The notes beneath the pieces are model-generated. The model saw only the letters and a program-made list of their open reading frames with translations. It did not search any database and had not been told where the DNA came from. The translations under genes and the position numbers were made by a program. This document shows positions 31,332 through 48,567 of a stretch of DNA of 64,000 bases, piece after piece. Source of the stretch: Bacteroidota bacterium (lineage in GTDB: Bacteria; Bacteroidota; Bacteroidia; UBA4408); contig JAZKHE010000004.1 of the NCBI GenBank assembly GCA_040385525.1, positions 35,357 through 99,356 of the forward strand, in the 5' to 3' direction. Numbering within the stretch: position 1 is the first letter of the stretch; every line of letters starts with the position of its first letter.

Positions 31332-31418
31332 CTTGTTTTTTTTAATTATGATACAAAATAAATACTAAACTACGCAGTCAAATTGCGCAGTTGATTTTTT
31401 TTCATTTTTTTTTAAAAT

Positions 31419-31440: not shown

Positions 31441-31450
31441 ATGCTACAAT

Positions 31451-33011: not shown

Positions 33012-33403
33012 CACACAACGTGAGACACACAAAATAATTACGCAGAATACAAGCAATCAAAGATTGTTGCACTATGGGGAAAGGAAACCCTCATCTTGGC
33101 GCAAAAATTTATTTATGCATCATTCTCCTCTTTTCAGAGAAGATTTTTAATCCTGATTTTCAGGAAATATTTTCAAGGAACTTTATTACTTTAAATCAAC
33201 GATGCAAATTTTATACTCATGTACGCAGTCGAATTGCGTACTAAAATTATTTTTAAATAGTTTATCAATTTAAAATGTAAATGACTGGTTTTCAACAAGA
33301 AAAAATCACTAGTAATTAGGTTAATTTTAAATCTACGCAAATACAATGCGTAGATGATTAATAAATAGTATATTTACGTTAACTAATTTTTCAAAACTTC
33401 AAT

Positions 33404-34417
33404 ATGCCAATTAATAAATTAGCTTTAGTTAGATACAAAACAATAGATAATTGTTTGCAAAATCGTTTTAGAAAATGGACATTAGAAGACTTAATGGAAG
33501 CCTGTTCTGATGCGATTTATGAATATGAAGGAATTACAAATGGAGTAAGCAAACGCACTATACAACTAGATATTCAGAACATGCGCAGTGAAAAACTAGG
33601 ATATAATGCCCCTATTATAGTTACAGATAAAAAATATTATAGCTATGAAGAAAAGAATTATAGTATTACTAATATTCCTTTAACACAACAAGATTTAAGC
33701 ACCTTGAATGAAGTACTTGATGTATTAAAACAATTTAAAGGTTTTGGTTATTTCCAAGAATTAAACGGAATGGTTACTCGTTTAGAAGATAAACTTTATA
33801 AACAACAACATAGAGGCAAGTCATATATTGATTTCGAAAAAAACGAATTATTAAAAGGATTAATACATATTGATGCACTACATAAAGCAATTATTAATAA
33901 GAAAACAATTGAAGTAACTTATCAATCATTTAAAGCAAAGCTTCCACAGCAAATTGTATTTTATCCCTATTTATTAAAAGAATACCGCAATAGGTGGTTT
34001 ATTTTAGGTGCAAATAAAAATGGAAAAACAATAATGATATTAGCATTAGATAGAATAGAAAAATTTAAAGAATTAAATTCTGAAAAATATCACAAATCAG
34101 AATTTGATGTTAATACTTATTTTAATGATGTAATTGGTGTTTCAAAAATGCCCACCCAGAAGCCACAACTTATTGTTATGAAAATAATTAAAGAGCATGC
34201 TCCATATATAATTACAAAACCCATGCATAGTTCACAAAAAATTTTGAGTGAAGATTCTGAAGGAGTTATCTTTTCAATTGAAGTTATTTGGAATTTTGAG
34301 CTGGAAAGAGAAATTCTTGGCTTTGCTGAACATTTAAAAATAGTTAGTCCTAAAAGATTATCAGGAAGAATACAATCACGAATGAAGAATACACTCACAA
34401 AATATCAAATGGAATAA
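33404..34417 (+). CDS. WYL-domain transcriptional regulator (HTH_11 + WYL; BrxR/CapW-like architecture).
   Basis: N-terminal HTH (GVSKRTIQLDIQNM). WYL hallmark YRNRWFILGANKNGKTIMILALDRIEKF. Two palindromic TACGCA-N7-TGCGTA sites lie upstream. Confidence 0.65.
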   Translation: MPINKLALVRYKTIDNCLQNRFRKWTLEDLMEACSDAIYEYEGITNGVSKRTIQLDIQNMRSEKLGYNAPIIVTDKKYYSYEEKNYSITNIPLTQQDLSTLNEVLDVLKQFKGFGYFQELNGMVTRLEDKLYKQQHRGKSYIDFEKNELLKGLIHIDALHKAIINKKTIEVTYQSFKAKLPQQIVFYPYLLKEYRNRWFILGANKNGKTIMILALDRIEKFKELNSEKYHKSEFDVNTYFNDVIGVSKMPTQKPQLIVMKIIKEHAPYIITKPMHSSQKILSEDSEGVIFSIEVIWNFELEREILGFAEHLKIVSPKRLSGRIQSRMKNTLTKYQME

Positions 34418-34491
34418 TTTTAAAATTTATTCTTGCATTATTAAAATTAATATTTAACTTTGCAGTACAAAGTACTTTTAACTAATTCAAA

Positions 34492-35130
34492 ATGACTGAA
34501 AATAACAAGCACTTAGAGAACCTTTCCGAAATTAGAACATTAATGGAAAAATCTTCTAGATTTATTTCATTAAGCGGTTTATCGGGCGTTGCAGCAGGGT
34601 TATTTGCTTTATCTGGTATTGTGGCAGCCTATTTATATTTGCCTACTGTAATGAAGTCGGGTGAATACTATAAAGCTGCATTCACTGATAATGGAGAAAT
34701 TAATTTTCAATTTTTTAGTTTCTTTATAGTTGATGCAAGTATTGTTTTGTTAGGCTCTATTGTTTTTGGAATTTACTTTACCGTTAGAAAATCACAAAAG
34801 AAACAACAAGCTATTTGGGATAATACTTCAAAAAGATTACTAATAAATTTATCTATACCCCTAGTTACTGGCGCAATTTTTTGTTTCGTTTTATTATACC
34901 ATGGCTTAATTGGTTTAATAGCCCCTGCTACTTTAATTTTTTATGGTTTAGCGTTAATAAACTCTAGTAAGTATACATTAAATGATATTAGATATTTAGG
35001 GATAATTGAAGTTATTTTAGGCTTAATTTCTTCTTTCTTTATTGGTGCTGGATTATTGTTTTGGGCAATTGGTTTTGGTGTGCTTCATATAATTTATGGT
35101 ATTGTTATGTACAATAAATACGAAAAATGA
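34492..35130 (+). CDS. Hypothetical integral membrane protein (4-5 TM).
   Basis: Hydrophobic segments. The next gene overlaps by ATGA. Confidence 0.45.
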   Translation: MTENNKHLENLSEIRTLMEKSSRFISLSGLSGVAAGLFALSGIVAAYLYLPTVMKSGEYYKAAFTDNGEINFQFFSFFIVDASIVLLGSIVFGIYFTVRKSQKKQQAIWDNTSKRLLINLSIPLVTGAIFCFVLLYHGLIGLIAPATLIFYGLALINSSKYTLNDIRYLGIIEVILGLISSFFIGAGLLFWAIGFGVLHIIYGIVMYNKYEK

Positions 35131-35426
35131 AAACATACATTGAGGACTTAAATAAAGCTTTTGAAAGTAGAATTAGGCTCGGCATTATGTCTATACTTAT
35201 GGTTAATGACAGCGTTGATTTTGCTACCATTAAAGAGTTATTAGATATTACTGACGGTAATCTTGCAAGCCACATATCTGCATTAGAAAAATTAGAATAC
35301 TTAAAAGTTATTAAACAATTTGTAGGAAAAAAACCAAACACTTCATATAGCATAACTAAACAAGGTAGAAAAGCCTTCACAAACCATTTAGATGCTTTGG
35401 AAAAATTATTAAAAAATAGAGCATAA
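35127..35426 (+). CDS. Small winged-helix transcriptional regulator (PadR-like).
   Basis: 99 aa. wHTH-like pattern and basic wing (FVGKKPNTSYSITKQGRKAF). Translationally coupled to the upstream membrane protein. Confidence 0.5.
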   Translation: MKTYIEDLNKAFESRIRLGIMSILMVNDSVDFATIKELLDITDGNLASHISALEKLEYLKVIKQFVGKKPNTSYSITKQGRKAFTNHLDALEKLLKNRA

Positions 35427-35445
35427 ATTTTTTTACACTTAAACT

Positions 35446-35961
35446 TTGAAATTCAAAGTACTTTTAAATATGAAAACAAAATTTGAACTAGACCAAAAAA
35501 AGAAAATAAAAAGGATTCTTATCGTTTTTATAACTCTCTTATTATTAAGTGGTATAACTGCTTTCCCAATTGAAATTGAACTACAGTTATTGCAAAATAT
35601 AGCCATAAAATCGCCAAACGTTTTAAGCGAATGGATTACTACTGTATACAACGCTATATCTATAACTAACAATAGTTTTCCATATCTATCTTATGGAACA
35701 GATTGGCTTGCTTTTGCTCATATAGTAATTGCGGGAATGTTTATTGGCCCATTAAAAGATCCAATAAAAAATATCTGGATAATTCAATTTGGAATTGTTG
35801 CTTGCATAATGGTTATTCCAACTGCTTTTCTTTGCGGATATATAAGACACATTCCATTTTATTGGCAACTAATTGATTGTTCTTTTGGAGTATTTGGTAT
35901 GATACCACTTATAATTTGTAAAAAGAAAATAACCATTCTCGAAAACTTAAAAATAAAATAA
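35446..35961 (+). CDS. Hypothetical integral membrane protein.
   Basis: 171 aa, ~4 TM segments. Confidence 0.4.
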   Translation: MKFKVLLNMKTKFELDQKKKIKRILIVFITLLLLSGITAFPIEIELQLLQNIAIKSPNVLSEWITTVYNAISITNNSFPYLSYGTDWLAFAHIVIAGMFIGPLKDPIKNIWIIQFGIVACIMVIPTAFLCGYIRHIPFYWQLIDCSFGVFGMIPLIICKKKITILENLKIK

Positions 35962-35983
35962 ACAAACCTAAAACAAACTAAAT

Positions 35984-38509
35984 ATGAAAACTCTACTAAA
36001 CAAAATCCTAAATGATAAAACATTATTTACAGGTATAATTTTTATTATTTTATCATTAGTTGTATTTATTATACCTGAACTAAATTCTTTAAAAATCAAT
36101 AACAACGCATTTTTAGGAGTGTTTTTTGTTAATTATTGTTTTATAATCATTTATATTATAGTACTGCTAGGAAAAACATTTTTTCAAAAATGGAAATTTT
36201 TAAACTTCAAATTTGAATACGCCACAGTACTTTCAATTCTATATTTGATAAGTGCATTTTCATTAAACAGAGAAATACCAATTTTTGAAGACTCAGTATT
36301 ATGGGTAAGTATATTTTTGTGTATCCAGTGTACTTCAATTATACTATTATCGCTTTTAGACGAAAACTCATCTAAACTACTTAAACATATTTTAATCGGT
36401 ATAAATGGAGTTGGAATAGTGTTTTATATTTATTACACAATCTATTTAACTCCCTTTTATTTAATTGGAATGATTGGTGGTCTTTTTTTTGGGGTTGGCT
36501 TACATGTGTTTGTACCTGCTTTTTGCGTGGTGTTAATATTACTTAGAGTTAGAAAAGAATATAAAATAAATAAGCAATTTATTTATTCTTTTGTTGTTGG
36601 CGTATTAATAGCTAGCACAGCTACTATCCTATTTGTATCACAATGGCAAAAATATTCAACAAAAATTAATTACATCATTAACGACCAAGTAGCTAATGAT
36701 AATAATTTGCCACTTTGGGTTAATCTAAGTCAACAAATTGAAAAAAACCATTTTACTGAAAAAATATTTAAAAGCAATTTAGTTTATACGGTTTACAACA
36801 ACAATAAATTCTGGCAATTTGGATTTCCGCAAGAGTTGTTTGATGAAGTTAAAAAACACGACCCATTAGTAATGATTGCTTCATTTTTCTCAAATGTTCC
36901 AGATATAAGTGATAAAGAAAAAATTAAAATATTAGAATCAATGTATGATTCTAGACACCAAGCTCAAGAAAGACTTTGGTCTGGCGATATGCTACAAACA
37001 TCTAATGTAATAAGTAATGTTAAACTGTTTCCTGAATATAGAATTGCTTACACCGAAAAAATAATAAGCATTAGTAATAATGATGTAAAAAACAATTGGA
37101 ATAACGAAAAAGAGGCAATCTATACTTTTTATTTACCAGAGGGAGGAGTTGCAACATCACTTTCGTTATGGATTAATGGAAAAGAAGAAAAAGGAATTTT
37201 AACTACAAAAAGCAAAGCAGATTCGGCATACAAAACAATTGTTGGTGTAGAATCAAGAGATCCATCTGTGGTTCATTGGCAAGAAGGAAATACATTATCT
37301 GTTAGAGTTTTTCCATGCACATCTAAAGAAAACAGACGATTTAAATTAGGCATTACCGCTCCTTTAAAAAAATATAAGAATAAACTAGTATATCAAAACA
37401 TCTATTTTGATGGTCCTAATTCATTAAACGCAACAGAAAGCGTACAAATTCAAATTACTAAAGATGTTGCTAACATTGAGTTTCCGTTTTTATTTGAAGA
37501 AATTAAAAACAACGTTTATAAAGCCGAAAAAAAATATAGCCCTTATTGGGAAATAAATTTTGATGAAGTTCAATTATCAAAAGAAACTTTTTCTTTTGAT
37601 AATAACACCTACTCTATTTCTAATTATTCAAAAACCTATGAAAGTTTTAATGCTCAAAAAATATACCTAGATATAAATTCATCATGGACAAAAACTGAAA
37701 TGGATGAAATTTGGAAAGCAATTAAAACCAAAGAAGTGTATGTGTTTCAAGACGAAATGATAATTGTAAACAATAATAATTTAAAAAAATTGTTTGAACA
37801 ATTACAGAAAAAAAACTTTAGTCTTTTTCCTTTCGATAAAATTGAAATGCCCGAAAAATCATTGGTTATTTCTAAAAGCACATCAACTTCTCCTAATTTA
37901 AAAGACATTCAAGAATCTGTATTTTTTGAAGAGCTTAAAAAACAATTACAAAAAAACACACAAGTTAGAATGTTCAATTTTGGAGATAATCTTTCGCCCT
38001 ACTTAAAAAGCTTAAAAGAATTAAGAGTGTTTGTATACGACGAAGGAAGCACTAAAAAACTAAGTGATAACATTTTAAACTCCAAATTTATATTAAATCA
38101 AGAAAATGATTCTTCAATTGTAATTGATAACGCAGAAATTATAATACGAAAAGAATTAGGAAATAAAAATGAAAATGCACCCGATCATTTATTAAGACTA
38201 TATGCTTACAACAATGTTTTAAAAACTGTAAGCAAAAATTATTTCAATAATAATTTTATAAATGATGATGTAATAAGTGAAGCCGAATTAGCATATGTTG
38301 TTACTCCTGTATCAAGTTTAATTGTTTTAGAAACAAAACAAGATTACGAAAGATTTGATATTGTAGCGAGTAAAAACAGTTTAAAAAATGCCTCTATAAA
38401 ATCATCTGGCGCAGTGCCAGAACCGCATGAATGGTTGCTAATTATTATTGCAGCTTCAATAATAATTTACTTACGTTTTAAACCCTACTTTATTAAAAAA
38501 GCAGCATAA
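35984..38509 (+). CDS. Polytopic membrane protein with a VIT (vault protein inter-alpha-trypsin)-like domain and a C-terminal PEP-CTERM-like sorting signal. Putative exosortase substrate/partner.
   Basis: ~8 N-terminal TM helices. VIT-like block EAIYTFYLPEGGVATSLSLWINGKEEKGILTTKSKADSAYKTIV. C-terminus ...GAVPEPHEWLLIIIAASIIIYLRFKPYFIKKAA (PEP motif + TM + basic tail). Its stop overlaps the exosortase start. Confidence 0.6.
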   Translation: MKTLLNKILNDKTLFTGIIFIILSLVVFIIPELNSLKINNNAFLGVFFVNYCFIIIYIIVLLGKTFFQKWKFLNFKFEYATVLSILYLISAFSLNREIPIFEDSVLWVSIFLCIQCTSIILLSLLDENSSKLLKHILIGINGVGIVFYIYYTIYLTPFYLIGMIGGLFFGVGLHVFVPAFCVVLILLRVRKEYKINKQFIYSFVVGVLIASTATILFVSQWQKYSTKINYIINDQVANDNNLPLWVNLSQQIEKNHFTEKIFKSNLVYTVYNNNKFWQFGFPQELFDEVKKHDPLVMIASFFSNVPDISDKEKIKILESMYDSRHQAQERLWSGDMLQTSNVISNVKLFPEYRIAYTEKIISISNNDVKNNWNNEKEAIYTFYLPEGGVATSLSLWINGKEEKGILTTKSKADSAYKTIVGVESRDPSVVHWQEGNTLSVRVFPCTSKENRRFKLGITAPLKKYKNKLVYQNIYFDGPNSLNATESVQIQITKDVANIEFPFLFEEIKNNVYKAEKKYSPYWEINFDEVQLSKETFSFDNNTYSISNYSKTYESFNAQKIYLDINSSWTKTEMDEIWKAIKTKEVYVFQDEMIIVNNNNLKKLFEQLQKKNFSLFPFDKIEMPEKSLVISKSTSTSPNLKDIQESVFFEELKKQLQKNTQVRMFNFGDNLSPYLKSLKELRVFVYDEGSTKKLSDNILNSKFILNQENDSSIVIDNAEIIIRKELGNKNENAPDHLLRLYAYNNVLKTVSKNYFNNNFINDDVISEAELAYVVTPVSSLIVLETKQDYERFDIVASKNSLKNASIKSSGAVPEPHEWLLIIIAASIIIYLRFKPYFIKKAA

Positions 38510-39831
38510 TGATTATTGAATATTTTAAGAATTTTACTAAAAAGCAAATAACAACTTTAGTGTTGTTATTTGCTTACTTAATAACTGGTTTTTTTTTACT
38601 TAAAAACTTCATTATTGTTGATGTGAATGTGTTTTTAGGATTAGCTATTACTCCTTATGTTATTGATTTTGAAAAGGGAGCATATTCACAAAAATATTTA
38701 GTCCCAACAGTATTACTTCTTATTCTTTCTTTTTACATTCAAATTTATACTTTAGTATTCTTAATAGTTTTATTTGGTATTATCTATTTATTAGAAAGTA
38801 GAATCGGGAAAGTTAGCTACCTATTCTTTTTCTTACTTATTATTTTATCTCCTATTTTTAAATTCTTAAGTAATTCAATTGGTTTTCCGATAAGATTATG
38901 GCTTAGCGAAGTAACAGGAAATTTATTATTATTTACTGGAAAAAAAGTTGAAACCATAGGTAATATAATTATTATAGATGGATTTGAATTTTCTGTTGAT
39001 CCTGCTTGTGCAGGCTTAAAAATGATGGCTATATCATTTATAATTTCTATTTTTTTAATTGCCTACTTTCAAAACAAAATAAAAAGTAGAATTTCATTTT
39101 TTCAGGTTTCAATTATTTTAATTTTCACATTTATACTAAATGTTATTTGCAATCTATTTCGGATAATTTCATTAATAATTTTTAAAATTTTACCTGATAA
39201 TCCACTGCACGATTTTGTTGGTATAGTATGTTTGTTGCTTTATGTTATTTTACCTCTATTTTTTGTAATCAAATTAATTTTAAAATTTTCTAAATATGAG
39301 CCAAGCGCTAAACCAGAGCAAAACAAAATAAGTAGGCTAAACATTCTTTACAATTCAATAATTATTTGTTCACTCCTATTTTCAAGTTTCAAAATTCAAA
39401 ATAGTAATTCAACAACAATAATAACAAACATCATTACTATTGACGGATTTAAAAAAGAAATTTTAAAAACAGGAATTACAAAATTTGAAAACAATAATGC
39501 ACTAATTTATTTAAAGCCACTACAGTTTTACAATGCAGAACATAACCCAATGTTATGTTGGACAGGTAGTGGATATGAGTTTAGTACAATAAACAAAATA
39601 AAAATTAGTGGAATTGATGTTTATACTGGAGTTATGAAAAAAGGCAACGACAAAATATATACTGCTTGGTGGTTTGATAATGGCACAACAAAAACTATTA
39701 GTCAAATCGAATGGAGATGGGTATCTGCAAAAGAGAACTCTTTATGTTATTTAATTAATGTTAGTGCTAGTTCTCAAAAAAATTTAATTATTCAAACCGA
39801 AAACTTACTAAAGCAGCAAATCATAAAATAA
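38509..39831 (+). CDS. Exosortase-family (Xrt; XrtF/XrtN-like) transmembrane transpeptidase.
   Basis: Multi-TM protein with the conserved exosortase Cys motif in DPACAGLKMM (ACSGLR-like). Adjacent to a PEP-CTERM-like protein. Confidence 0.6.
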   Translation: MIIEYFKNFTKKQITTLVLLFAYLITGFFLLKNFIIVDVNVFLGLAITPYVIDFEKGAYSQKYLVPTVLLLILSFYIQIYTLVFLIVLFGIIYLLESRIGKVSYLFFFLLIILSPIFKFLSNSIGFPIRLWLSEVTGNLLLFTGKKVETIGNIIIIDGFEFSVDPACAGLKMMAISFIISIFLIAYFQNKIKSRISFFQVSIILIFTFILNVICNLFRIISLIIFKILPDNPLHDFVGIVCLLLYVILPLFFVIKLILKFSKYEPSAKPEQNKISRLNILYNSIIICSLLFSSFKIQNSNSTTIITNIITIDGFKKEILKTGITKFENNNALIYLKPLQFYNAEHNPMLCWTGSGYEFSTINKIKISGIDVYTGVMKKGNDKIYTAWWFDNGTTKTISQIEWRWVSAKENSLCYLINVSASSQKNLIIQTENLLKQQIIK

Positions 39832-40094
39832 AGATACTACAGCTACAACTTTTACGTCGGTTTATAAAATCCATATTAAGCAAGTACCTAAATCTCTGTT
39901 TAGACCTTTAGCGCTCTTTTTAACCTCAGCTTCTAAAGTTTCAATTAGTTCATGCTGAGTTTTTTTAGACTAACGAGGATTTTGCAAGCTTACTATAGAA
40001 TTAACCACACAAAAAAAGCTCAATCTCACCATTTTAAGGTATAACATATCTAGCTCCTGCCATTTTCCAGCAGTTTTTGAGCTGCTTTTTCCGC

Positions 40095-40330
40095 ATTTTG
40101 CCAACAATTGCGAACTTTTGCCAACTTTTGCCAACTTTTACGGGAAATTTGCCAACTTTTTCGGAAAATCAGCCAGCTTTTTCGACCTCATTTTCAAAAT
40201 TCAGCTCCATTTTCCGTCATATTTTCGATTTTGACTACACTTTTTCAGTTTATACAGCATTTTTTTAGCATTCAAAATAGATTTTGGCTGAATTTTACTG
40301 CATTTTTTAAAAAACTCAAGCTTTTTTGTC
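40095..40330. repeat. Iteron-like direct repeats (TTTTGCCAACTTTT x ~5) embedded in ~20 phased T-tracts at ~10-11-bp spacing (predicted intrinsically bent DNA), inside a 1-kb ORF-free gap between convergent genes.
   Basis: 40097-40185 reads attttgccaacaattgcgaacttttgccaacttttgccaacttttacgggaaatttgccaactttttcgg. The periodic tttt tracts continue to ~40330. The ORFs 40077-40543 read through the repeats and are spurious. Confidence 0.55.
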
Positions 40331-40887
40331 CGATTTGTTTCGCAGATTACTTAAATCGCGTTGACTTGTAACTCTTCATTGTATTTAAATCTCATTTTCC
40401 AGCACAATGTTTTCTATTTTCTTGCTTTCGCGTCTTTCAAACTCCTTACAGTGTCAATTTTTAATGAAACTAGCATTATAATCTGGTTCAAATTGCCGTT
40501 CAAGATTTATTTCAGAACAATTTTATGCTGTTCTGCTTTTTAAACCAATTTTTGTGGCTCGCAAGTGCGGCAAATTAATTTTGAAACAGTTTATATTCTC
40601 AAATTGCTGCACAACCAATTAAGACAAGATTTTTTATGCGAAAAATGTGTTAACTGATTCAACATATAATAATTATATGTTGAAATAATCAATTATTTTC
40701 AACATATTATTGCTATATGTTTTGTAAAACAACTACCAAGAGTAAGAGATATTGTTAAGTTGCAAGATGTATTAATTAGAAATAATAATGGTCTAAGAAA
40801 ACAACTAAGTAAAGTATTGAAAAACATTGAAACTTAAGAAGTTGTTTTTACACTTCCATTTTGATAATGCTTAATAGATGAGATAAT

Positions 40888-43800
40888 TTAAACTCTTAAC
40901 ATCCTTTTTAAAGTATCTTGCATTGCAATTCTAAACGCATCGTCTTTTGCTAATAAGCGATATAATTCCAGTTCGTTTTTACGTTCAGAAGAAACTACAT
41001 CCTCAAATATTTTCATAAAGGCAATGCCTTTATTTTGTTCATCCATGTTTTCTTCAAACTTAGTTTTGAAATCAGGATGAGATTGTATTTTACTGGCAAG
41101 GCTTACAAACTTAACACGTTGTTCTTCTGGTGTTATACTCCAGCCTTGAAACCAACGTTCGTTAAAGCTCTTAATAATTAAATCTAATTGGTCTTCCTCT
41201 GAATCGCTACCATGTGCACTTCGTGGATTTGGATTTTGTGGGTCTAATTCAGTTTCAGTTGAATCTAATCCAATGTGTGCATTTAATTTAACTCGTTCTA
41301 ACCCATAGGTTGATAAATCAACTGAATTTAATAATTCGTCTAATGCATCTGAATTGCGGTCAATGATAACTAATTTTGGAATTAAGAATTTTAAAAACCA
41401 AAAAAGCTTTTCCCATTTTAAAACTTCATAAGGCAATATTGAGGCCATTTGTCCGTAAATCTTCACAAACTGCTTGGCTTTAATTTTATAATCTGCTTTT
41501 ACCTTGTCTTCTAATTCGAGTTGATTGTTAAATCTATCGGCTGCAATATCAATTATGGGACTTAATTGCTCAGCATTAACTCCTTTAAAATATTTCTCTA
41601 CAAAATCTTCTACCTCGCTCCATTCATAAACGCCTGCATCATCTAAATGTGTTTTTAATTCATGTAATACATTAACGTCAGTTGCTTTACTTAATGTGGT
41701 TGATGTATAAAATGGATCAAAGGCTTGTTTAATATCTTCGGTTGCATTAAAGAAATCGAGTACAAATAAATCTTCCGTTTTTTTCCCTAGTTTATCTGCT
41801 GCACGGTTTAATCGTGATAGAGCTTGAACAGCTAAAACACCTTGTAGTTTTTTATCTACATACATGGCGGTTAGCTTTGGTTGATCGAATCCTGTTAAAT
41901 ATTTATTGGCAACAACTAACACTTTATAGTCATCTTCATCAAATTTATCTCGTGTATCTTTTTCTGCAAAACCATTTAAACTATCTTCCGTGTACTCAAT
42001 ACCATTAACCAGTTTTGAGCCCGAAAAAGCAATAGCAGCCTTAAATGGATTTCCTTTTTCATTTAATATTTCTTGAATAGCTTTAAAGTAATGAATAGCG
42101 GATTCTATACTTTGAGTAATAACCATCGCTTTTGCCTTACCTTTTAATTTTTTGGTATTTACTATTTTGGAAATAAAATGATCCATCATAATATCTGCTT
42201 TGGTAGCAATGGTATCTTTATTTCGCTCAACAAAAGCACGTAATTTTTTTTGAGCTTTAGAGGTATCAAATAATGGGTTTTCAGAAATAGATTTTTCTAT
42301 TTCATAGTAGCTTCTATAAGTTGTATAATTTGCTAATACATCTAAAATAAAACCTTCTTCAATCGCTTGTTTCATTGAATATAAGTGGAAAGGCTTGTAC
42401 TTACCATCTTCTTGTTTTACTCCAAATTTTTCAAGTGTTATGTTTTTAGGTGTTGCTGTAAAGGCAAAATATGAGGCATTAGTACTCATTTTGCGATTAT
42501 GCATTGCCTCAATAATTTTATCTTGAGCATCTGTTTCTTCTTCATCGCCAGTACTTGAAATAGCACGATTCATATTATCTGCTGCTGAACCACTCTGTGA
42601 ACTATGAGCTTCATCAATAATAACTGCAAAGCGCTTATCACTTAAATCGGCGATACCATCTACAATGAATGGAAATTTTTGAATGGTAGTAATGATGATT
42701 CGTTTACCACTTTCTAAACTTTCTTTTAATTCTTTTGATGAGTAAGCTGGAGCCACAATGTTTTTTACTTCAGAAAACTCTTTAATATTTTCTCTTAATT
42801 GCTTATCCAATAATCTTCTATCAGTAACAATAATTACTGAATCAAATAATGGATTTGATACTCCTTTACTTCCAGGAACGGTATTGTTGATTGGATACGT
42901 TTCAATTAATTGATAGGCTGCCCATGTAATTGAATTGGATTTACCTGAACCTGCAGAGTGCTGTATTAAATACGTTTGACCTAATCCATTTTCGCTTGCA
43001 TGATTTATTAAACGCCTTACTACATCCATTTGATGGTAACGAGGGAAATATAAACTCTTTTTATTTAAAGCATCTGTTTCTTTTCCATCAAAGCGAACAA
43101 AGTGTTGAATAATATTTGCTACACTTTGACGTGTTAATACTTCATCCCACAAATAACTTGTTTTATGACCAAATGGATTTGGGGGATTTCCTTTACCAAA
43201 GTTGTGACCTAAATTAAATGGTAAAAAGAATGTATTACCTCCATCTAATTTAGTTGTCATATATACCTCGTCGGTATCAACTGCAAAATGGACTAAGCAT
43301 CTGCCAAATTGCAATAATGGTTGTGTTATATCTCGTTTAAACTTGTATTGGTTTTGACCATGTACCTTGGCATTTTGACCTGTCCATTGATTTTTTAATT
43401 CAACAGTGCTAAATGGTATACCATTAATAAATAATACCATGTCAATTTCTTCGCCTTTATTAACTTCTGAATAACGAATTTGGCGTGTAACACTAAATTC
43501 ATTTTTATCAAAATTATCTTTAACTGTTTGACTACTGCTTGCTAGAGGCAATTGATATAATAACGTGAAGTGAGCGTCATCCACTTCTAATCCTTTACGC
43601 AACAAACGAATGATGCCGTATTTTTTAATTAAACGATCTAAACGTTCGAGTATCTTTAATTTCCAATCACTTTGTTTTTGTAGTTTAAGTAATTCTTCTT
43701 TTTGAGTAGTTTCTAGAAAATGCCAAAAGCGGTTTTCATCAATGGCAAATTGTGGATTAAAATCTTTGGCTTCACCTAAATAATAACCATTACCACTACG

Positions 43801-43926
43801 ATAGAGTTCTGCTCTTTCGGCAAAAGCATTTACTACCCCTAAAGCTTTTAATTCTTCAAGAGTTGTACCTGTTAATTTTTTTTCAATTACAGCTTCAAGA
43901 GCTTGTTCGTTGGTTTGACTAGTCAT
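40888..43926 (-). CDS. hsdR: Type I restriction enzyme R subunit (HsdR).
   Basis: 1012 aa. Walker A GSGKSNSI. DEAH box VIIDEAHSSQSG. Helicase C domain. C-terminal HsdR-specific region. Confidence 0.85.
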   Translation of the reverse strand: MTSQTNEQALEAVIEKKLTGTTLEELKALGVVNAFAERAELYRSGNGYYLGEAKDFNPQFAIDENRFWHFLETTQKEELLKLQKQSDWKLKILERLDRLIKKYGIIRLLRKGLEVDDAHFTLLYQLPLASSSQTVKDNFDKNEFSVTRQIRYSEVNKGEEIDMVLFINGIPFSTVELKNQWTGQNAKVHGQNQYKFKRDITQPLLQFGRCLVHFAVDTDEVYMTTKLDGGNTFFLPFNLGHNFGKGNPPNPFGHKTSYLWDEVLTRQSVANIIQHFVRFDGKETDALNKKSLYFPRYHQMDVVRRLINHASENGLGQTYLIQHSAGSGKSNSITWAAYQLIETYPINNTVPGSKGVSNPLFDSVIIVTDRRLLDKQLRENIKEFSEVKNIVAPAYSSKELKESLESGKRIIITTIQKFPFIVDGIADLSDKRFAVIIDEAHSSQSGSAADNMNRAISSTGDEEETDAQDKIIEAMHNRKMSTNASYFAFTATPKNITLEKFGVKQEDGKYKPFHLYSMKQAIEEGFILDVLANYTTYRSYYEIEKSISENPLFDTSKAQKKLRAFVERNKDTIATKADIMMDHFISKIVNTKKLKGKAKAMVITQSIESAIHYFKAIQEILNEKGNPFKAAIAFSGSKLVNGIEYTEDSLNGFAEKDTRDKFDEDDYKVLVVANKYLTGFDQPKLTAMYVDKKLQGVLAVQALSRLNRAADKLGKKTEDLFVLDFFNATEDIKQAFDPFYTSTTLSKATDVNVLHELKTHLDDAGVYEWSEVEDFVEKYFKGVNAEQLSPIIDIAADRFNNQLELEDKVKADYKIKAKQFVKIYGQMASILPYEVLKWEKLFWFLKFLIPKLVIIDRNSDALDELLNSVDLSTYGLERVKLNAHIGLDSTETELDPQNPNPRSAHGSDSEEDQLDLIIKSFNERWFQGWSITPEEQRVKFVSLASKIQSHPDFKTKFEENMDEQNKGIAFMKIFEDVVSSERKNELELYRLLAKDDAFRIAMQDTLKRMLRV

Positions 43927-43931
43927 TTAAA

Positions 43932-44666
43932 TTAATTAATCAATTTGTTTATAATATCATGAGCTTTTTTAATATCAGCTGTTTGATCATTTTCGTTTTT
44001 GTATCCTATTTTACCAACATATACATTGTTATTATGTTCGGTGAAATAAACCCTTAGTGCGGTTGGTAAATAAACTCTCAATTCATAAACAGAGCATTCA
44101 TATTTATTTGGTGTTACATCCTTGACTATTTTGGTGTCAGGATAATATTTTGTTTTTAAATTTCGAGCCTTAGCTTTTTCAAAATCTTCAATAATAGATA
44201 CTTGCTCTTGAGGAGTTAATGTGTTAAATTCTTTTTCAAATTCCGATGAAATGAAAGCCTTTTCTAATGTCACTTTAAGTTTTTCATAAGTTGATGAACC
44301 AGCATAACACCATTCTTTATATGTGGAATCATTTATTATCTGTTTATCAGGACTAATAACACTTCCTGTGAAATTTATTCCAAGAAAAGCATATTTTTTT
44401 CCGTTAGTTTGTAAAATAGCACTTTCATCGTTATTTATATAGTTGCTTACTGAAGAAAGCTTACCAATGAATTTTATTATTTCTTGTACTTCTTGTCCAT
44501 TATTAGCAAATAGTTCAACATAGTATTCTAATTCATAAACGGATTCATGCTTACAAAAATCATCCTCCTTCTTTCTATCAATTGTTATTAGTTCACTCAT
44601 ACCTTCTTTGAAATCAGAAAAATTACCCTTAGTTAAAGTTTCATTTATTAAAAACAAGTGGCTCAT
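43932..44666 (-). CDS. Hypothetical protein, third gene of the embedded DUF262-ATPase cassette.
   Basis: 244 aa, no recognisable motif. Start overlaps the ATPase stop by 4 nt. Confidence 0.45.
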   Translation of the reverse strand: MSHLFLINETLTKGNFSDFKEGMSELITIDRKKEDDFCKHESVYELEYYVELFANNGQEVQEIIKFIGKLSSVSNYINNDESAILQTNGKKYAFLGINFTGSVISPDKQIINDSTYKEWCYAGSSTYEKLKVTLEKAFISSEFEKEFNTLTPQEQVSIIEDFEKAKARNLKTKYYPDTKIVKDVTPNKYECSVYELRVYLPTALRVYFTEHNNNVYVGKIGYKNENDQTADIKKAHDIINKLIN

Positions 44667-45817
44667 GACTTTCTCATTTTAAATAATTCAGCAAAATCAT
44701 TTTGACTTTGGTCAAAAAATCCTTTTGGCCATTTTGATAACTCTCCTTTTTCTGAAATAGAAATAGATTCAACATTTGGCTGCTTGTCGCCTTCTTCCTG
44801 ACTAAAAAAGTTTATGGTTACTTGTTCAGGTTGTATATCTTTTTTTGCTGTTGCTATTTGGATGCCATTTATTACATGATCGCTATGAGTTTCGACAATC
44901 ACATTAACACCTGATTTAGCTACCATTGCTAAAAACTGACCAATTTTTGATTGTGCTGAAGGATGCAAATGTGCTTCTGGATTTTCAACAATCATGATAC
45001 TATCCTTTTTAGCAATTAAACCAGTTACAATTATTGGCAATACATAACTTATACCAAAACCAATATTTGTTGCAATTGTGCTATTTCCTTTGGTATATAT
45101 ATTATCAACTCGTATTTGTGCTGAATGTGTTTGAGGCTCGTAAAACGCAGAAATTGAAACACCAGGCATTAATTCATTTAACCAAGCATTTACCTGTTGC
45201 TCAAGTCTTTTACTTTTAGAGGAAGTGTGTCTTCTTTCATTTTCAACTTCAAACTTGTAATTAGATTCAGTATCTGAAATTAATTGAGCAACGAATTCAC
45301 CTTGATAACCGGCATTGGGATAATCATAAAATTTAATTCCTTGATTTATTCTTGGTCCAATTCTTTCAGCATTTAAATAATAAAACTCTTGCATAAATAA
45401 TGATTTTGTCATTGGCATATCATTATGGACTTCAACTGGTTTTAACCATAGATTAATTTCGTCGTTTATATCGTAAACAACTTGAAATGATTCGGGTAAA
45501 TTTTTAATATTATTATATATCGTAATAGCAGAAAAATCTGGAGATGTATTTTTAGGTATTATTAAATCACTTGTTCCTAGAGCTAAGCAATACGAACCAT
45601 TTAGTTCAACATTTAAACCGTTCGGTTCATGAAAAAGATATTGTTCGATGTTTTTTTCCCAAACTGAACAATGTTCAACTGTTCTTCTCAAAAAAAGCAA
45701 TGCCTGAATGACAGTACTTTTACCGCCCCCATTTGCGCCAGTTAAAATAGTTAATTGATTTAAAGGAATGTTTTTATTAGTAAAACACTTAAAATTTTCT
45801 ATTTGAATATTCGTCAT
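44663..45817 (-). CDS. ABC/SMC-like AAA_15/AAA_21-family ATPase (DUF3696-type, abortive-infection/defence-associated).
   Basis: Walker A TGANGGGKST. Signature ENPEAHLHP (D-loop/H-loop region typical of this defence ATPase family). 384 aa. Confidence 0.65.
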   Translation of the reverse strand: MTNIQIENFKCFTNKNIPLNQLTILTGANGGGKSTVIQALLFLRRTVEHCSVWEKNIEQYLFHEPNGLNVELNGSYCLALGTSDLIIPKNTSPDFSAITIYNNIKNLPESFQVVYDINDEINLWLKPVEVHNDMPMTKSLFMQEFYYLNAERIGPRINQGIKFYDYPNAGYQGEFVAQLISDTESNYKFEVENERRHTSSKSKRLEQQVNAWLNELMPGVSISAFYEPQTHSAQIRVDNIYTKGNSTIATNIGFGISYVLPIIVTGLIAKKDSIMIVENPEAHLHPSAQSKIGQFLAMVAKSGVNVIVETHSDHVINGIQIATAKKDIQPEQVTINFFSQEEGDKQPNVESISISEKGELSKWPKGFFDQSQNDFAELFKMRKS

Positions 45818-47214
45818 TATCTGATTGGTAAATGTTTTATTATTAGTTCATCAATTGCATTAAATACATATATTAAATTTGCTTTAGAGTTGGTACCATA
45901 TGACAAATAATTAAAAAACGTTCTATTTTCTTCAATACCTCTGGCTAAAGGTTCTAGGAGAATATTTCTTTGATAATTACTGGAAATAATTTCATGATCA
46001 ATTTTTGATAATAAAACTGAGCAACTTACAAATAAAGCTTTATTGATTAATTGTTTATTAGCGCCTGGTACAATATCTTTGGTTACAACCTTTCTAAATG
46101 CGTATCTACTTCCAAATAAATATTCAGCATTTTTCATGGCATTTGAAAAACGTGCGACATAAGTATTCAATTCTTCAAAACTAACTCTAGAGAGTGTATC
46201 CGTTAAATTATCTAACTCCGAGTCCATGTAGCCAGTATAATTATCAATTCTATTATCATTACCAATTAATCTATAAAATAAAATAAAACGTAAAGCAACT
46301 TCGTGATCGTCCATTCGGGTCGGTTTAATACTGTAATCTGTAGCCGTTAAAAACTCAGGCAAGTTAACCATTTCTTTTAGCGTATCTCTTAGACTTTTAC
46401 CCGCTAAACAATTTCTTATTTCCTGATTATTTAATGGTTTACCACCTGTATTAATACGTCTGAAAATATCGTACTTAACTTTTTGCGGAGATGATGGATC
46501 AATTACATTAACTGAAAATTGCGTTTGATTAAACCATCTGAAATATTTTCCTTCAATAGATGGCAAACCATTAGATTCTCCGTTTTTACGAGTGCTAGAG
46601 TAATATTTACCTTCACAAGAAGATTTTAAATATTCTAAACCTTTTAATGGAAATTTATTTTCCATAAAATCTTTGATAGTTGTTAATCTTTGTAATCCAT
46701 CTACTACAGTTATTCGACCTTCTTCATCTTCTGAAAAATAAAACATTGGTAAAGGAATGCGTAATAATATTGATTCGATTAATCTTGATTTTTGATGACT
46801 GTTCCAAACATAATTTCTTTGAAAATCAGGTGCCAAATCAATATCACCATCATCAATCATATCGGATATTAATCTTAAGTTGAATGCCTTTGAGTGAATC
46901 TTAATTCGTTCAGGGTCATACGGACTTACTTCAGCTACTTCAATAGATTCAGTGAATCCTGTGCCTGATTGTTGTTGTTCAATAAGTTCGAGAGCAACTT
47001 TATTTAATTTGACTTCAAGAATTTCATTACTATCTATGATTGCATCACTTTTATAAATAATTGAAAAACTTGAATTTTCTAATCTTAATGTCATCCAAGC
47101 AATGGAATTATTATCCATTAAATGAAAAATATTTTCCTCGTTGAATTCATCGAAAATTCTATATGGTGCAACTAGTACCGTTTCACCAATACCAATATTT
47201 AATTCTATATTCAT
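45817..47214 (-). CDS. DUF262 (ParB/GmrS-like N-terminal nuclease/NTPase domain) protein.
   Basis: Signature DFQRNYVWNSHQKSRLIESILLRIPLPMFYF. 465 aa. No obvious DUF1524/HNH tail. Its stop shares a nucleotide with the ATPase start. Confidence 0.6.
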   Translation of the reverse strand: MNIELNIGIGETVLVAPYRIFDEFNEENIFHLMDNNSIAWMTLRLENSSFSIIYKSDAIIDSNEILEVKLNKVALELIEQQQSGTGFTESIEVAEVSPYDPERIKIHSKAFNLRLISDMIDDGDIDLAPDFQRNYVWNSHQKSRLIESILLRIPLPMFYFSEDEEGRITVVDGLQRLTTIKDFMENKFPLKGLEYLKSSCEGKYYSSTRKNGESNGLPSIEGKYFRWFNQTQFSVNVIDPSSPQKVKYDIFRRINTGGKPLNNQEIRNCLAGKSLRDTLKEMVNLPEFLTATDYSIKPTRMDDHEVALRFILFYRLIGNDNRIDNYTGYMDSELDNLTDTLSRVSFEELNTYVARFSNAMKNAEYLFGSRYAFRKVVTKDIVPGANKQLINKALFVSCSVLLSKIDHEIISSNYQRNILLEPLARGIEENRTFFNYLSYGTNSKANLIYVFNAIDELIIKHLPIR

Positions 47215-47238
47215 AATTAATATTCCTATTTAAATATA

Positions 47239-48567
47239 CTATACCTTTATCTTACCTGTTACAGCCGAATTTATTAAACTGGCTTTATACTCTTTTAATT
47301 TTTCTATTTCTCGAACTTTGAGGGTAATTGCTGTTATGATTTTAGTACTAAAAGTTTCGATATATTCTGCAATTTCTATTTGTTCTTTCATTGGTGGAAT
47401 TACAACTGGCAACCTTTTCAATAATTCTTGACTTAAAGAGGCTCGAATAACCAAATTCATTTCGCCAACAAAAAATGACCTATGAGTTTTGCTGCTAAAA
47501 TAAAATTTAGAATAACCTTTAAACAAAACATTTTTTTTAGGTCTGAATCTGATTAAAAATCCTGCAAAAGTTGCTTGGTCAATTGTATGTAAACAAGTTG
47601 ATGCAAATCCTATTTCATCCACTGTTTCTGAAGTTCTAGTGAAAAAAACATCTCCTTCTTGAACCGAAAACTGTTTTTGATCTTTGCTATTTGATTCTGC
47701 CAAACCACTCAATTGATTTGGTAATTCAATATCATTATAAACATCACCATATGTTAAAAAAGGAAATCCTGTTCCAAAATATTCACCACCTTTACTTAAA
47801 CCATTTTGAGTTTTACCTATAAATCGAAGAGGTTTCACTTCCCAATCTTCTGGTATCTCTCCAATCCATTCCACTCCGCTATCTTTTAGTTTTATATTTG
47901 TTTTAAGCCCTCGGGTAACACTTTTGTGTATGAGTATTTGCCTGCGTTCTTTAAGCAATTCTATTTGTTTTTCTTTAATACTGATGGCTTGGTCTATCAA
48001 AGCTGTTTTCCGGTCAAGGTATTCAACAATTACAGATTGTGTTTGGTAATCAGGGAAAGGAAGAATTATTTTTTTAAAATCTTCTTTATTCAAAGATTCT
48101 CTTAATTCCATGATGCCTGTGCAATATTTTATCAAAGACTTATAAAATGATGGATTTGAAAAAATATAAGAATAATAATTAATATTTATTTGACTAGTTC
48201 TAGGTTTATAAACAAGATAAACTTGGCTGAATGCCCCATAGTATTTTGACATACCCAATGAGCCAATGACAACATTCATTTTATTTATTACAAAATCATT
48301 GGGATAAACTAGTTTGTATCTTTCAATATCCTCCGATTTGTTGTTACCAATTGCTCCTTTTTCATCGTAGGGGATTACACCTCTATCTTTTGTAACTGAT
48401 AGAATATAATCAGTCTTCCGACCTTCATTTTTTTCATTTCTTTCCTCAAATATCGCACGTATGGGAAGTGCGCCCCAATTCTCTGGAACTAATCCAGACC
48501 ATTCAACCCCTGAATCCTTATAAGCAGGATAATTTTTGACTGATGTTTTATCTGTTACCATTTGCAT
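47239..48567 (-). CDS. hsdS: Type I restriction-modification specificity subunit (HsdS).
   Basis: 442 aa with two target-recognition domains separated by a conserved coiled-coil spacer (ALIDQAISIKEKQIELLKERRQ and the C-terminal IEKLKEYKASLINSAVTGKIKV). Confidence 0.8.
   Translation of the reverse strand: MQMVTDKTSVKNYPAYKDSGVEWSGLVPENWGALPIRAIFEERNEKNEGRKTDYILSVTKDRGVIPYDEKGAIGNNKSEDIERYKLVYPNDFVINKMNVVIGSLGMSKYYGAFSQVYLVYKPRTSQININYYSYIFSNPSFYKSLIKYCTGIMELRESLNKEDFKKIILPFPDYQTQSVIVEYLDRKTALIDQAISIKEKQIELLKERRQILIHKSVTRGLKTNIKLKDSGVEWIGEIPEDWEVKPLRFIGKTQNGLSKGGEYFGTGFPFLTYGDVYNDIELPNQLSGLAESNSKDQKQFSVQEGDVFFTRTSETVDEIGFASTCLHTIDQATFAGFLIRFRPKKNVLFKGYSKFYFSSKTHRSFFVGEMNLVIRASLSQELLKRLPVVIPPMKEQIEIAEYIETFSTKIITAITLKVREIEKLKEYKASLINSAVTGKIKV

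What the first reader, a model, noticed from the sequence alone, without database searches (positions are those of the whole stretch)
40095..40330. 1-kb ORF-free convergent gap with iterons and ~20 phased T-tracts (predicted strongly curved DNA)
Seen: TTTTGCCAACTTTT-like units recur about 5 times between 40097 and 40185. Runs of 4-7 T are spaced every ~10-11 bp for >200 bp, which is classic in-phase A-tract curvature. Downstream (40658-40721) is a perfect 11-bp inverted repeat, TTCAACATATA-ATAAT-TATATGTTGAA, with a second degenerate copy. Inference: candidate replication/transfer origin, nucleoid-protein silencing site, or a boundary between island modules. The frame-shifting small ORFs here are artefacts of the repeats.
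Basis: partly seen in the sequence, partly recalled or inferred. Interest (0 to 1): 0.5.

Follow-up and report, generated by a model that had tools for sequence, protein, structure and literature searches.

The report
Ring-forming phased T-tract DNA array
A 280-bp stretch of non-coding DNA inside a mobile genomic island carries about 27 T/A runs spaced exactly one helical turn apart, so it should bend into a nearly closed ring. It is real and rare, but its kind (intrinsically curved DNA) is known and its job here is unproven.

Summary
Between 40063 and 40340 there are 19 runs of at least 4 T and 4 runs of at least 4 A on a 10.40-bp lattice, phase-coherent over 27 turns. This is the strongest such signal in the window and stronger than anything in 0.78 Mb of related metagenomic DNA. 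Two wedge models predict a nearly planar closed ring (about 418° of bend). The array sits in a 1056-bp gap between convergent xrtN and hsdR, inside a 35.6-kb tRNA-Asp island. The gap is a true module junction. Homology to other type I R-M loci stops at the hsdR stop codon, XrtN synteny stops at xrtN, and a truncated fic pseudogene (40646-40876) contains the reported palindrome. No sequence homologue of the array was found. It is not coding, not a structured RNA, not AT-rich, and has no rep, relaxase or par gene nearby, so an origin or oriT is unsupported. Arrays of the same style exist in phage contigs, upstream of terS in one clade and beside a partition gene in one contig. In the phage clade the T-tracts are invariant and indels are about 10 or 21 bp. 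Best reading: a shape-acting, protein-wrapping or supercoil-pinning DNA element built by amplifying a 10/21-bp unit. Whether it is still in use is unknown.

The parts
39832..40887 (.). 1056-bp non-coding gap between convergent xrtN (+) and hsdR (-). It is the junction of two acquired gene modules.
   Evidence: ORF map. Homology to R-M locus L021 ends at 40886-40888. No blastn match to 100 related loci, plasmids or phages.
40063..40340 (+). Phased T/A-tract array with 27 lattice positions at 10.40 bp. It has 19 T-runs and 4 A-runs of at least 4 nt, separated by T-poor, G+C-rich spacers of 5-7 nt. It is predicted to form a nearly planar closed ring.
   Evidence: periodicity, phase coherence, permutation p about 0.002. 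(curvature: 418° of turning, e2e 0.08, singular-value ratios 1:0.98:0.11).
40096..40184 (+). Iteron-like core of the array. TTTTGCCAAC occurs 3 times exactly, with 2 degenerate copies, and there is a 21-bp repeat GCCAACTTTTTCGGAAAATCA x 2.6.
   Evidence: TRF, the repeat finder family D1, pattern search. G/C autocorrelation peaks at lags 10/20/21/30 only in this left half.
40069..40090 (+). Weak terminator-like hairpin (7-bp stem AGCAGUU/AGCUGCU, loop UUUG, then U4) at the left edge of the array, about 240 nt after the xrtN stop.
   Evidence: MFE and centroid structure of 40060-40200 (+). It was not called by the consensus terminator scan.
40551..40583 (+). Match to the Bacteroidota promoter consensus (TTTG, 21 nt, TAATTTTG). 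It faces the fic remnant and the 3' end of hsdR.
   Evidence: Motif scan. The consensus is recalled from the literature, not tested. It is the only exact TAnnTTTG with a correctly spaced TTTG in the gap.
40646..40876 (+). Truncated, stop-riddled fic pseudogene fragment. It matches profile positions 82-161 of a 360-aa Fic family and ends 12 bp from the hsdR stop.
   Evidence: tblastx against L027 Fic E 2.5e-5. tblastn E 1e-8. hmmsearch with a 120-sequence Fic profile E 5e-11, with 5 in-frame stops.
40658..40721 (.). Perfect 13-nt-arm palindrome plus an 83% second copy. Together they fold as a 61-nt AU-rich hairpin. It lies inside the fic remnant.
   Evidence: the repeat finder I6, I1, D3. RNA fold z = -3.9. 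In-frame translation shows the palindrome supplies three of the stop codons.
35984..39831 (+). Left flank: XrtN-system VIT-domain protein and exosortase N. This is the end of a 5-gene module.
   Evidence: NCBIfam TIGR04477 (988 bits) and TIGR04476 (375 bits). The module is conserved in L018-L020 without any array.
40888..50915 (-). Right flank: type I R-M operon (hsdM, hsdS, hsdR) with an embedded Menshen system (nsnA, nsnB, nsnC).
   Evidence: Pfam and PADLOC.
24967..60627 (.). Enclosing genomic island. A 16-nt direct repeat GCGGTCCGGACGGGAC occurs at 24967 and at 60612 (the 3' end of tRNA-Asp). The tyrosine integrase gene is at 59305-60492 (-).

Best explanation
The feature is a stretch of intrinsically curved DNA that acts, or acted, through its shape rather than through an encoded product.

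**Origin (inferred).** A 10-11-bp unit (T4-5 plus a G+C-rich spacer; also 21 bp as a double unit) was amplified in tandem. The copies then diverged everywhere except in the T-tracts and their helical register.

**Shape (predicted).** The resulting 27 tracts on a 10.40-bp lattice add their small bends in one plane. About 280 bp is therefore predicted to close into a ring about 25 nm across.

**Function (inferred, by analogy).** DNA of this kind is a preferred platform for proteins that wrap DNA around a ring or filament. Examples are small terminase at pac sites, ParR-type centromere binders, initiators, HU/IHF-like proteins and gyrase. It is also a preferred position for the tip of a plectoneme. 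Here it lies at the junction of two horizontally acquired modules, the XrtN operon and a type I R-M/Menshen defence operon, which are transcribed towards each other inside a tRNA-Asp island. The most likely role is an architectural or topological one: a fixed bend or docking site between the two convergent operons.

**What is shown and what is inferred.** Shown: the sequence pattern, its rarity, the predicted curvature, the module-junction context, and the absence of coding, RNA or origin signatures. Inferred: the tandem-amplification origin, selection on phase, and every statement about what binds it or what it does.
For: **Periodicity and phase**
- The period is 10.40 bp and phase is constant within about ±20° over 27 turns.
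- The interval order is non-random: deviations compensate one another, p about 0.002.
- The lattice period is 10.4 although the repeat unit itself is 10 or 21 bp.

**Composition**
- The spacers are T-poor and G+C-rich in a 30% G+C genome. The left half is 56-60% AT against a window median of 70%. This is the classic design of strongly bent DNA and not what neutral decay in an AT-rich genome would give.

**Predicted curvature**
- It is the extreme of the window under two parameter sets and four helical repeats. It also exceeds all 30,384 windows of 0.78 Mb of related DNA (lowest e2e there 0.31, against 0.08 here).
- The path is planar, with singular-value ratios 1:0.98:0.11.

**No competing product**
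- There is no RNA structure on either strand (z from 0 to +1.4) and no Rfam hit.
- The small ORFs have no family.

**Independent analogues in phage contigs**
- In one phage clade (L157, L149, L171, L224, L226) a 13-16-tract array of the same style is conserved about 0.8 kb upstream of terS. In the three aligned members (L157, L149, L171) the T-tracts are invariant, the spacers vary, and indels are about 10 or 21 nt, so phase is preserved.
- In L185 a 13-tract array lies about 0.5 kb from a partition-protein gene.

**Literature**
- SPP1-type small terminase selects intrinsically bent pac DNA with a ring of HTH motifs spaced one helical turn apart (PMC4737164).
- Intrinsic curvature pins plectonemes (PMC6301789).
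Against: - No homologue of this array was found anywhere: a 20-mer scan of genomes and viral contigs, 80 hsdR loci, 3 xrtN loci, plasmids and phages. Conservation of this particular element therefore cannot be shown.
- It lies in a stretch that also holds a dead gene, so it could be debris.
- No candidate cognate protein (TerS, ParR, Rep) is encoded in the island.
- Nearly all tracts are T on the same strand. Curvature alone does not require this; it points to ancestry by tandem duplication or to a strand-specific role.
- The curvature is a model prediction made with wedge angles recalled from the literature, not a measurement.
- Phased arrays upstream of terS occur only in the closest relatives. 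TerS homologues at 69% identity or less lack them, and so does one contig with 96% identity. The link between such arrays and packaging therefore rests on position only.
- The two assemblies that carry the gap are identical, but both appear to derive from one sample.
Confidence: 0.5

Rival explanations
1. Neutral relic. A 10/21-bp minisatellite arose by replication slippage in junk DNA at a module junction and is decaying. The curvature is an accidental by-product with no function.
For: - The array is an orphan with no homologue.
- It is embedded in a gap with a fic pseudogene.
- The tracts have a uniform strand orientation, and there is a core of near-identical units. Both are the signature of tandem duplication.
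Against: - The lattice period is 10.40, not 10 or 10.5 (= 21/2). It is kept over 27 turns by compensating interval lengths (p about 0.002).
- T-tracts are retained while the spacers have diverged.
- The spacers remain G+C-rich in a 30% G+C genome.
- Nothing comparable occurs in 0.78 Mb of related DNA.
Confidence: 0.2
2. Iteron-type replication origin, oriT or centromere of the island, either active with factors supplied in trans or a relic of a plasmid or phage-plasmid ancestor.
For: - There are 4-5 direct repeats with a GCCAAC core at 10/21-bp spacing.
- A DnaA-box-like TTAACCACA lies 95 bp to the left of the iteron-like core.
- 10-11-bp direct repeats are the format of type II parC centromeres (own knowledge).
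- A similar array sits beside a partition gene in phage contig L185.
Against: - No rep, primase, relaxase, parM/parR or parA/parB gene was found in the 35.6-kb island.
- There is no AT-rich unwinding element.
- Only about 5 of 27 units share a specific sequence.
- Nothing is conserved with any plasmid or phage record.
Confidence: 0.1
3. Upstream curved activator of a promoter. This would originally have been the promoter of the now-dead fic gene. By extrapolating the fic alignment, its start would lie about 60 bp right of the array. Alternatively it could be the predicted promoter at 40551-40583.
For: - The fic fragment is on the same strand. Extrapolating profile position 1 gives a start near 40400, just downstream of the array end at 40340.
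- There is an exact Bacteroidota-type -33/-7 match at 40551-40583.
- Curved DNA upstream of promoters is common (PMC6301789).
- The second most curved site in the window (about 15141) is a promoter-type position.
Against: - Promoter-associated curvature usually spans 3-6 tracts, not 27.
- The 5' part of fic is not detectable.
- The intact Fic locus L027 has no array upstream.
- The predicted promoter is 210 bp from the array and drives nothing recognisable.
Confidence: 0.1
4. Packaging-site mimic. The array imitates the bent pac/cos DNA recognised by the small terminase of a helper phage, so that the excised 35.6-kb island is packaged and transduced.
For: - Arrays of the same style are conserved about 0.8 kb upstream of terS in one phage clade.
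- TerS of the SPP1 type selects bent DNA rather than a specific sequence (PMC4737164).
- The island has an integrase and a phage-genome-like size.
Against: - There is no sequence similarity to those phage regions.
- The island has no phage-interference, capsid or terminase genes.
- No helper phage is known.
- The pac role of the phage arrays is itself only inferred from position.
Confidence: 0.07
5. A non-coding RNA or small protein gene.
For: Mechanical ORFs of 54-87 aa overlap the array. There is a weak sub-threshold c-di-GMP-I hit (21 bits against a gathering score of 35) on the minus strand.
Against: - Fold energies are no better than shuffles on both strands (z 0.0, +0.39, +1.36, -0.85).
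- There are no Rfam hits at gathering score.
- The ORFs have no family and are repeat-generated.
- A 10.4-nt period is incompatible with a coding periodicity of 3.
Confidence: 0.03

Closest known systems
Phased A-tract clusters / intrinsically curved DNA in prokaryotic genomes (A-tract periodicity of 10-11 bp; kinetoplast-type bent DNA)
   Same: Runs of 4-7 A/T recur once per helical turn and alternate with G+C-rich spacers. Curvature is predicted to be strong and in-plane, and the location is non-coding (background PMC3431218 and PMC3372288).
   Different: - It is far longer and more regular than usual. It has 27 consecutive turns and about 418° of predicted bend, where typical promoter-associated bends have a handful of tracts.
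- It sits in mobile DNA, which Abel and Mrazek report generally lacks such periodicity.
- Almost all tracts are on one strand.
Bent pac DNA wrapped by SPP1/SF6-type small terminase
   Same: AT runs are interspersed with GC steps at helical spacing. Recognition is by conformational selection of bent DNA (PMC4737164). Arrays of the same style lie upstream of a Terminase_2-family terS in phage contigs L157, L171, L224 and L226.
   Different: There is no terminase gene in the island and no sequence similarity. The array here is about twice as long. The packaging role of the phage arrays was not demonstrated.
Type II plasmid centromere parC (R1: ten 11-bp direct repeats bound by ParR) and iteron origins
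   Same: Short direct repeats are spaced one or two helical turns apart, so a protein can line up on one face and wrap the DNA (own knowledge). An analogous array lies next to a partition gene in L185.
   Different: There is no parM/parR or rep gene. Only about 5 units share a core sequence. There is no AT-rich unwinding region.
Plectoneme-pinning curved sequences; gyrase-binding REP/BIME elements between convergent genes
   Same: The position is between convergent transcription units, where supercoils accumulate. Curvature is known to fix plectoneme tips (PMC6301789).
   Different: REP/BIME elements are palindromic and repeated across a genome, whereas this is a single direct-repeat array. 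No gyrase or supercoiling data exist here.

Membership tests
Intrinsically curved DNA (phased A-tract array) | At least 4 A/T runs of at least 4 nt repeating with the helical period (10-11 bp) | tested here: met
   23 runs on a 10.40-bp lattice. Fourier power is 6.4-7.1, against at most 2.5 elsewhere.
Intrinsically curved DNA (phased A-tract array) | Predicted static curvature well above the genomic background | tested here: met
   e2e/contour is 0.08-0.26 in two models, against a median of 0.90 and a background minimum of 0.31 in 0.78 Mb.
Intrinsically curved DNA (phased A-tract array) | Anomalous gel mobility or enhanced cyclisation | not testable with these tools
   Needs a wet-lab assay.
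Iteron-type replication origin | At least 3 direct repeats of 17-22 bp with a conserved core | tested here: inconclusive
   A 21-bp unit x 2.6 and a 10-bp unit x 4.4 are present. The remaining about 20 units share only the T-tract.
Iteron-type replication origin | Adjacent or nearby rep (initiator) gene | tested here: not met
   No Rep or primase family was found in any island ORF by Pfam, NCBIfam or PHROGs.
Iteron-type replication origin | AT-rich DNA-unwinding element and DnaA boxes | tested here: not met
   The array is 56-76% AT against a window median of 70%. There is a single 8/9 DnaA-like word at 40001.
oriT | Cognate relaxase or mobilisation gene in the element | tested here: not met
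   None was found in the island.
oriT | Nick-site motif next to an inverted repeat | not tested
   Nick motifs are family-specific and no relaxase family is available to choose one.
Type II (ParMRC) centromere parC | Array of 10-11-bp direct repeats | tested here: met
Type II (ParMRC) centromere parC | Adjacent parM/parR genes | tested here: not met
   The flanking genes are xrtN and hsdR, and there are no partition families in the island.
Phage pac/cos site | Located next to terS/terL in a phage or satellite | tested here: not met
   There are no terminase genes in the window. Only analogous arrays in phage contigs have them.
Structured non-coding RNA | Match to an Rfam family or a fold more stable than shuffles | tested here: not met
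   There was no gathering-score hit, and z was 0 to +1.4 over the array.
tRNA-integrated genomic island (context) | Tyrosine integrase next to a tRNA gene, plus a direct repeat of the tRNA 3' end | tested here: met
   The integrase is at 59305-60492, tRNA-Asp at 60612-60686, and the 16-nt repeat at 24967 and 60612.

The most novel reading that the evidence does not exclude
The array is a purpose-built DNA ring that a cargo-only genomic island uses as a sequence-independent docking site. One option is a mimic of the bent pac DNA recognised by a helper phage's small terminase, so that the island is transduced. The other is a centromere-like or plectoneme-anchoring element that insulates its defence operon. 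This would be a shape-only cis element for mobility or insulation, not previously described in Bacteroidota islands.
Probability: 0.12. Interest if true: 0.65.

Novelty: new member of a known kind. Interest (0 to 1): 0.38.

Why it matters
If the predicted ring is real and bound in vivo, it would be an unusually clean natural example of a cis element defined by DNA shape rather than sequence, placed between a defence operon and a neighbouring module of a mobile island. Together with the phage arrays found here, whose T-tracts are invariant and whose indels keep helical phase, it points to a class of phase-conserved T-tract arrays in mobile elements. Such arrays could be searched for systematically. 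They may mark packaging, partition or topological-insulator sites that homology searches miss.

Tried and rejected
- **Exact 20-mer TTTTGCCAACTTTTGCCAAC in viral and genome collections.** There were 15 hits, all with only two units, in unrelated phyla and with no phased array, so they are chance or unrelated regulator sites. The short extra matches to the Mu-like contig L004 (11-12-mers) are at the level expected by chance.\n- **Arm-type integrase sites.** The two island ends share AATTGTTAAACA, which is unlike the array unit. The IntDOT paper gave no site sequences and the DiChiara paper is not held.\n- **Linkage to xrtN.** The nearest homologues are 48-49% identical. Their loci have different downstream genes and no array.\n- **Linkage to hsdR.** 80 loci at 68-90% identity have no array and no gap homology. 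The modest periodic signals downstream of hsdR in L027 and L079 are coding or unconvincing, and L052 has only a short A-tract patch.\n- **blastn against plasmids and phages.** Nothing was found.\n- **Searching with the fic fragment as a protein.** No candidates were found. The search with the L027 Fic only confirmed that it is a Fic family. The L018 Fic is a different subfamily.\n- **A strict generic T-tract pattern excluding T in the spacers.** It gave zero viral hits and was too strict to be informative.\n- **TerS relatives.** The array is confined to the closest phage relatives and is not a general Terminase_2 feature.\n- **Consensus promoter/terminator scan of the gap.** It was not above shuffles.

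Full report
**Observation.** The window is about 30% G+C. Exosortase N (xrtN, 38509-39831, +) and the type I restriction subunit hsdR (40888-43926, -) converge on a 1056-bp gap with no ORF longer than 87 aa.

- The gap holds 19 runs of at least 4 T between 40063 and 40327, plus four runs of at least 4 A that fall on lattice positions otherwise lacking a T-run.
- TTTTGCCAAC is exact at 40096, 40116 and 40126 and has one mismatch at 40147. TRF reports a 10-bp unit x 4.4 copies and a 21-bp unit x 2.6 copies.
- The TT-dinucleotide spectrum peaks sharply at 10.4 bp. Sliding-window power is 6.4-7.1 here, against 1.9 for the next best site in the window and at most 2.5 in 80 related metagenomic loci.
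- Phase is constant to about ±20° in eleven overlapping 63-bp blocks.
- Shuffling the order of the inter-tract intervals reaches the observed coherence in 0.2% of 5000 trials. Long and short intervals therefore compensate one another.
- The palindrome is real and better than described: perfect 13-nt arms at 40658-40670 and 40672-40684, with an 83% second copy at 40698-40721.

**Curvature.**

- I used a dinucleotide wedge model with Bolshoy-Trifonov angles, entered from memory. Segment 40055-40340 turns through about 418° and its ends come within 8% of its contour length. The window median is 0.90 and the next independent site is 0.43.
- An AA/TT-only wedge model at 10.3-10.6 bp per turn again puts the window minimum here (0.11-0.26).
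- In 782 kb of related loci (30,384 windows) the lowest value is 0.31.
- The predicted path is almost planar, with singular-value ratios 1:0.98:0.11. It is a closed ring of roughly 230 bp circumference.

**What surrounds it.**

- A 16-nt direct repeat of the 3' end of tRNA-Asp (24967 and 60612), together with a tyrosine integrase carrying an arm-binding domain (59305-60492), defines a 35.6-kb island that contains the gap.
- The left module is a 212-aa protein, an HTH_34 protein, a 171-aa protein, the XrtN-system VIT protein and XrtN. It recurs in three loci whose XrtN is 48-49% identical, but with different downstream genes and no array.
- The right module is a type I R-M operon with an embedded Menshen system, NsnABC.
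- Eighty relatives of HsdR (68-90% identity) were fetched. Nucleotide homology with the closest one stops at the hsdR stop codon, and none has an array or any similarity to the gap.
- A Fic-family profile matches the + strand at 40646-40876 (profile positions 82-161 of 360, E 5e-11, five in-frame stops). This is a pseudogene truncated on both sides and ending 12 bp from hsdR.
- The palindrome lies inside this dead reading frame and supplies three of its stops. It is therefore not an independent operator, though as RNA it would form a stable 61-nt hairpin (z = -3.9).

**What the array is not.**

- It is not coding. The period is 10.4 nt, and the overlapping ORFs have no family.
- It is not a structured RNA. 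There are no Rfam hits at gathering score, and fold z-scores are 0 to +1.4 on both strands.
- A classical origin or oriT is unsupported.
  - No rep, primase, relaxase or partition gene was found in the island.
  - The array is not AT-rich. Its left half is 56-60% AT against a window median of 70%.
  - There is one 8/9 DnaA-like word.
  - Only about 5 of 27 units share a specific core.
- It is not an arm-site array for the island's integrase. The island ends share a different motif.
- It has no homologue in plasmids, phages, genomes or viral contigs.

**Signs of constraint.**

- Across the lattice only the T-tract (columns -2 to +2) and the T-poor, G+C-rich nature of the spacer are kept.
- G/C autocorrelation at 10/20/21/30 nt is confined to the left half, which is the younger, iteron-like core.
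- The overall period is 10.40 although the unit is 10 or 21 bp, and it is maintained by compensating intervals.
- This fits amplification of an oriented unit, which explains why 19 of 23 tracts are T on one strand. The amplification was then either followed by retention of helical phase or happened very recently.

**Analogues.** A generic scan of viral contigs for eight T4 tracts at alternating 10/11-bp spacing returned mostly giant-virus tandem repeats and coding repeats. A few intergenic arrays were of the same style.

- **Phage clade with terS.** L157, L149, L171, L224 and L226 form one phage clade with 77-93% DNA identity. Each has 13-16 T5 tracts with variable 5-6-nt spacers in a roughly 1-kb non-coding region. 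In L157, L171, L224 and L226 this lies about 0.8 kb upstream of terS (Pfam Terminase_2) and terL. In L149 a ParB-like/DNA methyltransferase gene and a SAM synthetase gene follow the array, with terL further downstream.
- **What is conserved there.** In the alignment of L157, L149 and L171 the T-tracts are invariant, the spacers differ, and the two indels are 10 and 21 nt.
- **Limits of the terS link.** More distant TerS relatives lack arrays.
- **Partition-gene contig.** In L185 a 13-tract array lies about 0.5 kb from a partition-protein gene.
- **Predicted bends.** These arrays are predicted to bend by 210-320°.
- **Literature.** SPP1-type small terminase selects intrinsically bent pac DNA with a ring of weakly binding HTH motifs spaced one helical turn apart (PMC4737164). 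Intrinsic curvature pins plectoneme tips (PMC6301789).
- **No shared sequence.** None of these arrays shares sequence with the window. They show how such arrays behave, not that they are related to this one.

**Explanation.** The best-supported reading is a DNA element that works through shape. It would be a static, nearly planar ring that offers a wrapping platform to an oligomeric DNA-binding protein, or fixes a supercoil apex between two convergently transcribed modules.

- The pattern, its rarity, the predicted curvature and the context are shown. The binding partner and the effect are inferred.
- I put this at about 0.5.
- Rivals are a neutral decaying minisatellite (0.2), a relic or trans-dependent iteron origin or centromere (0.1), a curved upstream activator of the dead fic promoter or of the predicted promoter at 40551-40583 (0.1), a helper-phage pac mimic (0.07), and an RNA or peptide gene (0.03).

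**Novelty and score.** Phased A-tract curvature is a known kind, so this is a new and extreme member. It has no demonstrated function, and only one genome, apparently from one sample, carries it. The interest is moderate. The useful by-product is the recognition of phase-conserved T-tract arrays at packaging and partition regions of phage contigs.

Noticed in passing
window 32845-33017 (-), with genes 27233-32551: Two tandem tRNA-like segments match the Y RNA-like family YrlA (RF02553, 46 and 31 bits, below the gathering score of 69) and tRNA (35 and 27 bits). They lie beside two rtcB genes, an RF-1-domain (PrfH-like) gene and a Band7 gene. This looks like an Rtc/Y-RNA-type RNA-repair module inside the island.
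   Followed up: partly
window 43932-47214 (-): A Menshen defence system is embedded between hsdS and hsdR of the type I R-M operon: NsnA 45817-47214, NsnB 44663-45817, NsnC 43932-44666. PADLOC E-values run from 6e-44 to 6e-113.
   Followed up: partly
window 50924-51127 (-): A 67-aa XRE/HTH-like ORF lies immediately upstream of hsdM. It may be a controller of the R-M operon. It was judged by reading the translation only.
   Followed up: no
window 24967-24982 and 60612-60627; integrase 59305-60492: The 16-nt direct repeat of the tRNA-Asp 3' end defines a 35.6-kb island carrying RNA-repair, XrtN, R-M/Menshen and polyamine-related modules, but no conjugation or phage structural genes. The two ends also share AATTGTTAAACA (25040, 60491), which may be integrase arm or terminal sites.
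   Followed up: partly
window 40646-40876 (+): A fic pseudogene fragment is truncated on both sides, and the reported palindrome lies within it. No remainder of fic was found on the far side of the R-M module, so the junction involved deletion rather than a simple insertion.
   Followed up: yes
L157 9375-9560; L171 3880-4075; L149 7690-7880; L224; L226 (viral contigs): One phage clade conserves a 13-16-tract phased T5 array in a roughly 1-kb non-coding region. In L157, L171, L224 and L226 it lies about 0.8 kb upstream of terS/terL. In the three aligned members (L157, L149, L171) the T-tracts are invariant, the spacers vary, and the indels are 10 and 21 nt. It is a candidate bent pac/cos region.
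   Followed up: partly
L185 12790-12950: A 13-tract phased T array, flanked by TATATAGCCTAT-type repeats, lies about 0.5 kb from a partition-protein gene (phrog_691). It is a candidate centromere of a phage-plasmid.
   Followed up: partly
L134 about 7450-7900 (contig end): More than 30 tandem 10/11-bp units (TTTTTCCGAAA / TTTTCACGAAA) lie at the end of a 57% G+C viral contig. They may be a terminal repeat or telomere-like array.
   Followed up: no
L006, L011, L012, L016, L017 (Chloroflexota MAGs): TTTTGCCAACTTTTGCCAAC lies just upstream of response-regulator genes, and in two loci just after an OmpR-type regulator gene. It is probably a conserved tandem regulator-binding site in that lineage and is unrelated to the window.
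   Followed up: no
window about 15100-15180: This is the second most curved site in the window (99° over 63 bp in the wedge model). It lies in the divergent gap upstream of the gene starting at 15130, which is ordinary promoter-type curvature and a useful yardstick.
   Followed up: no
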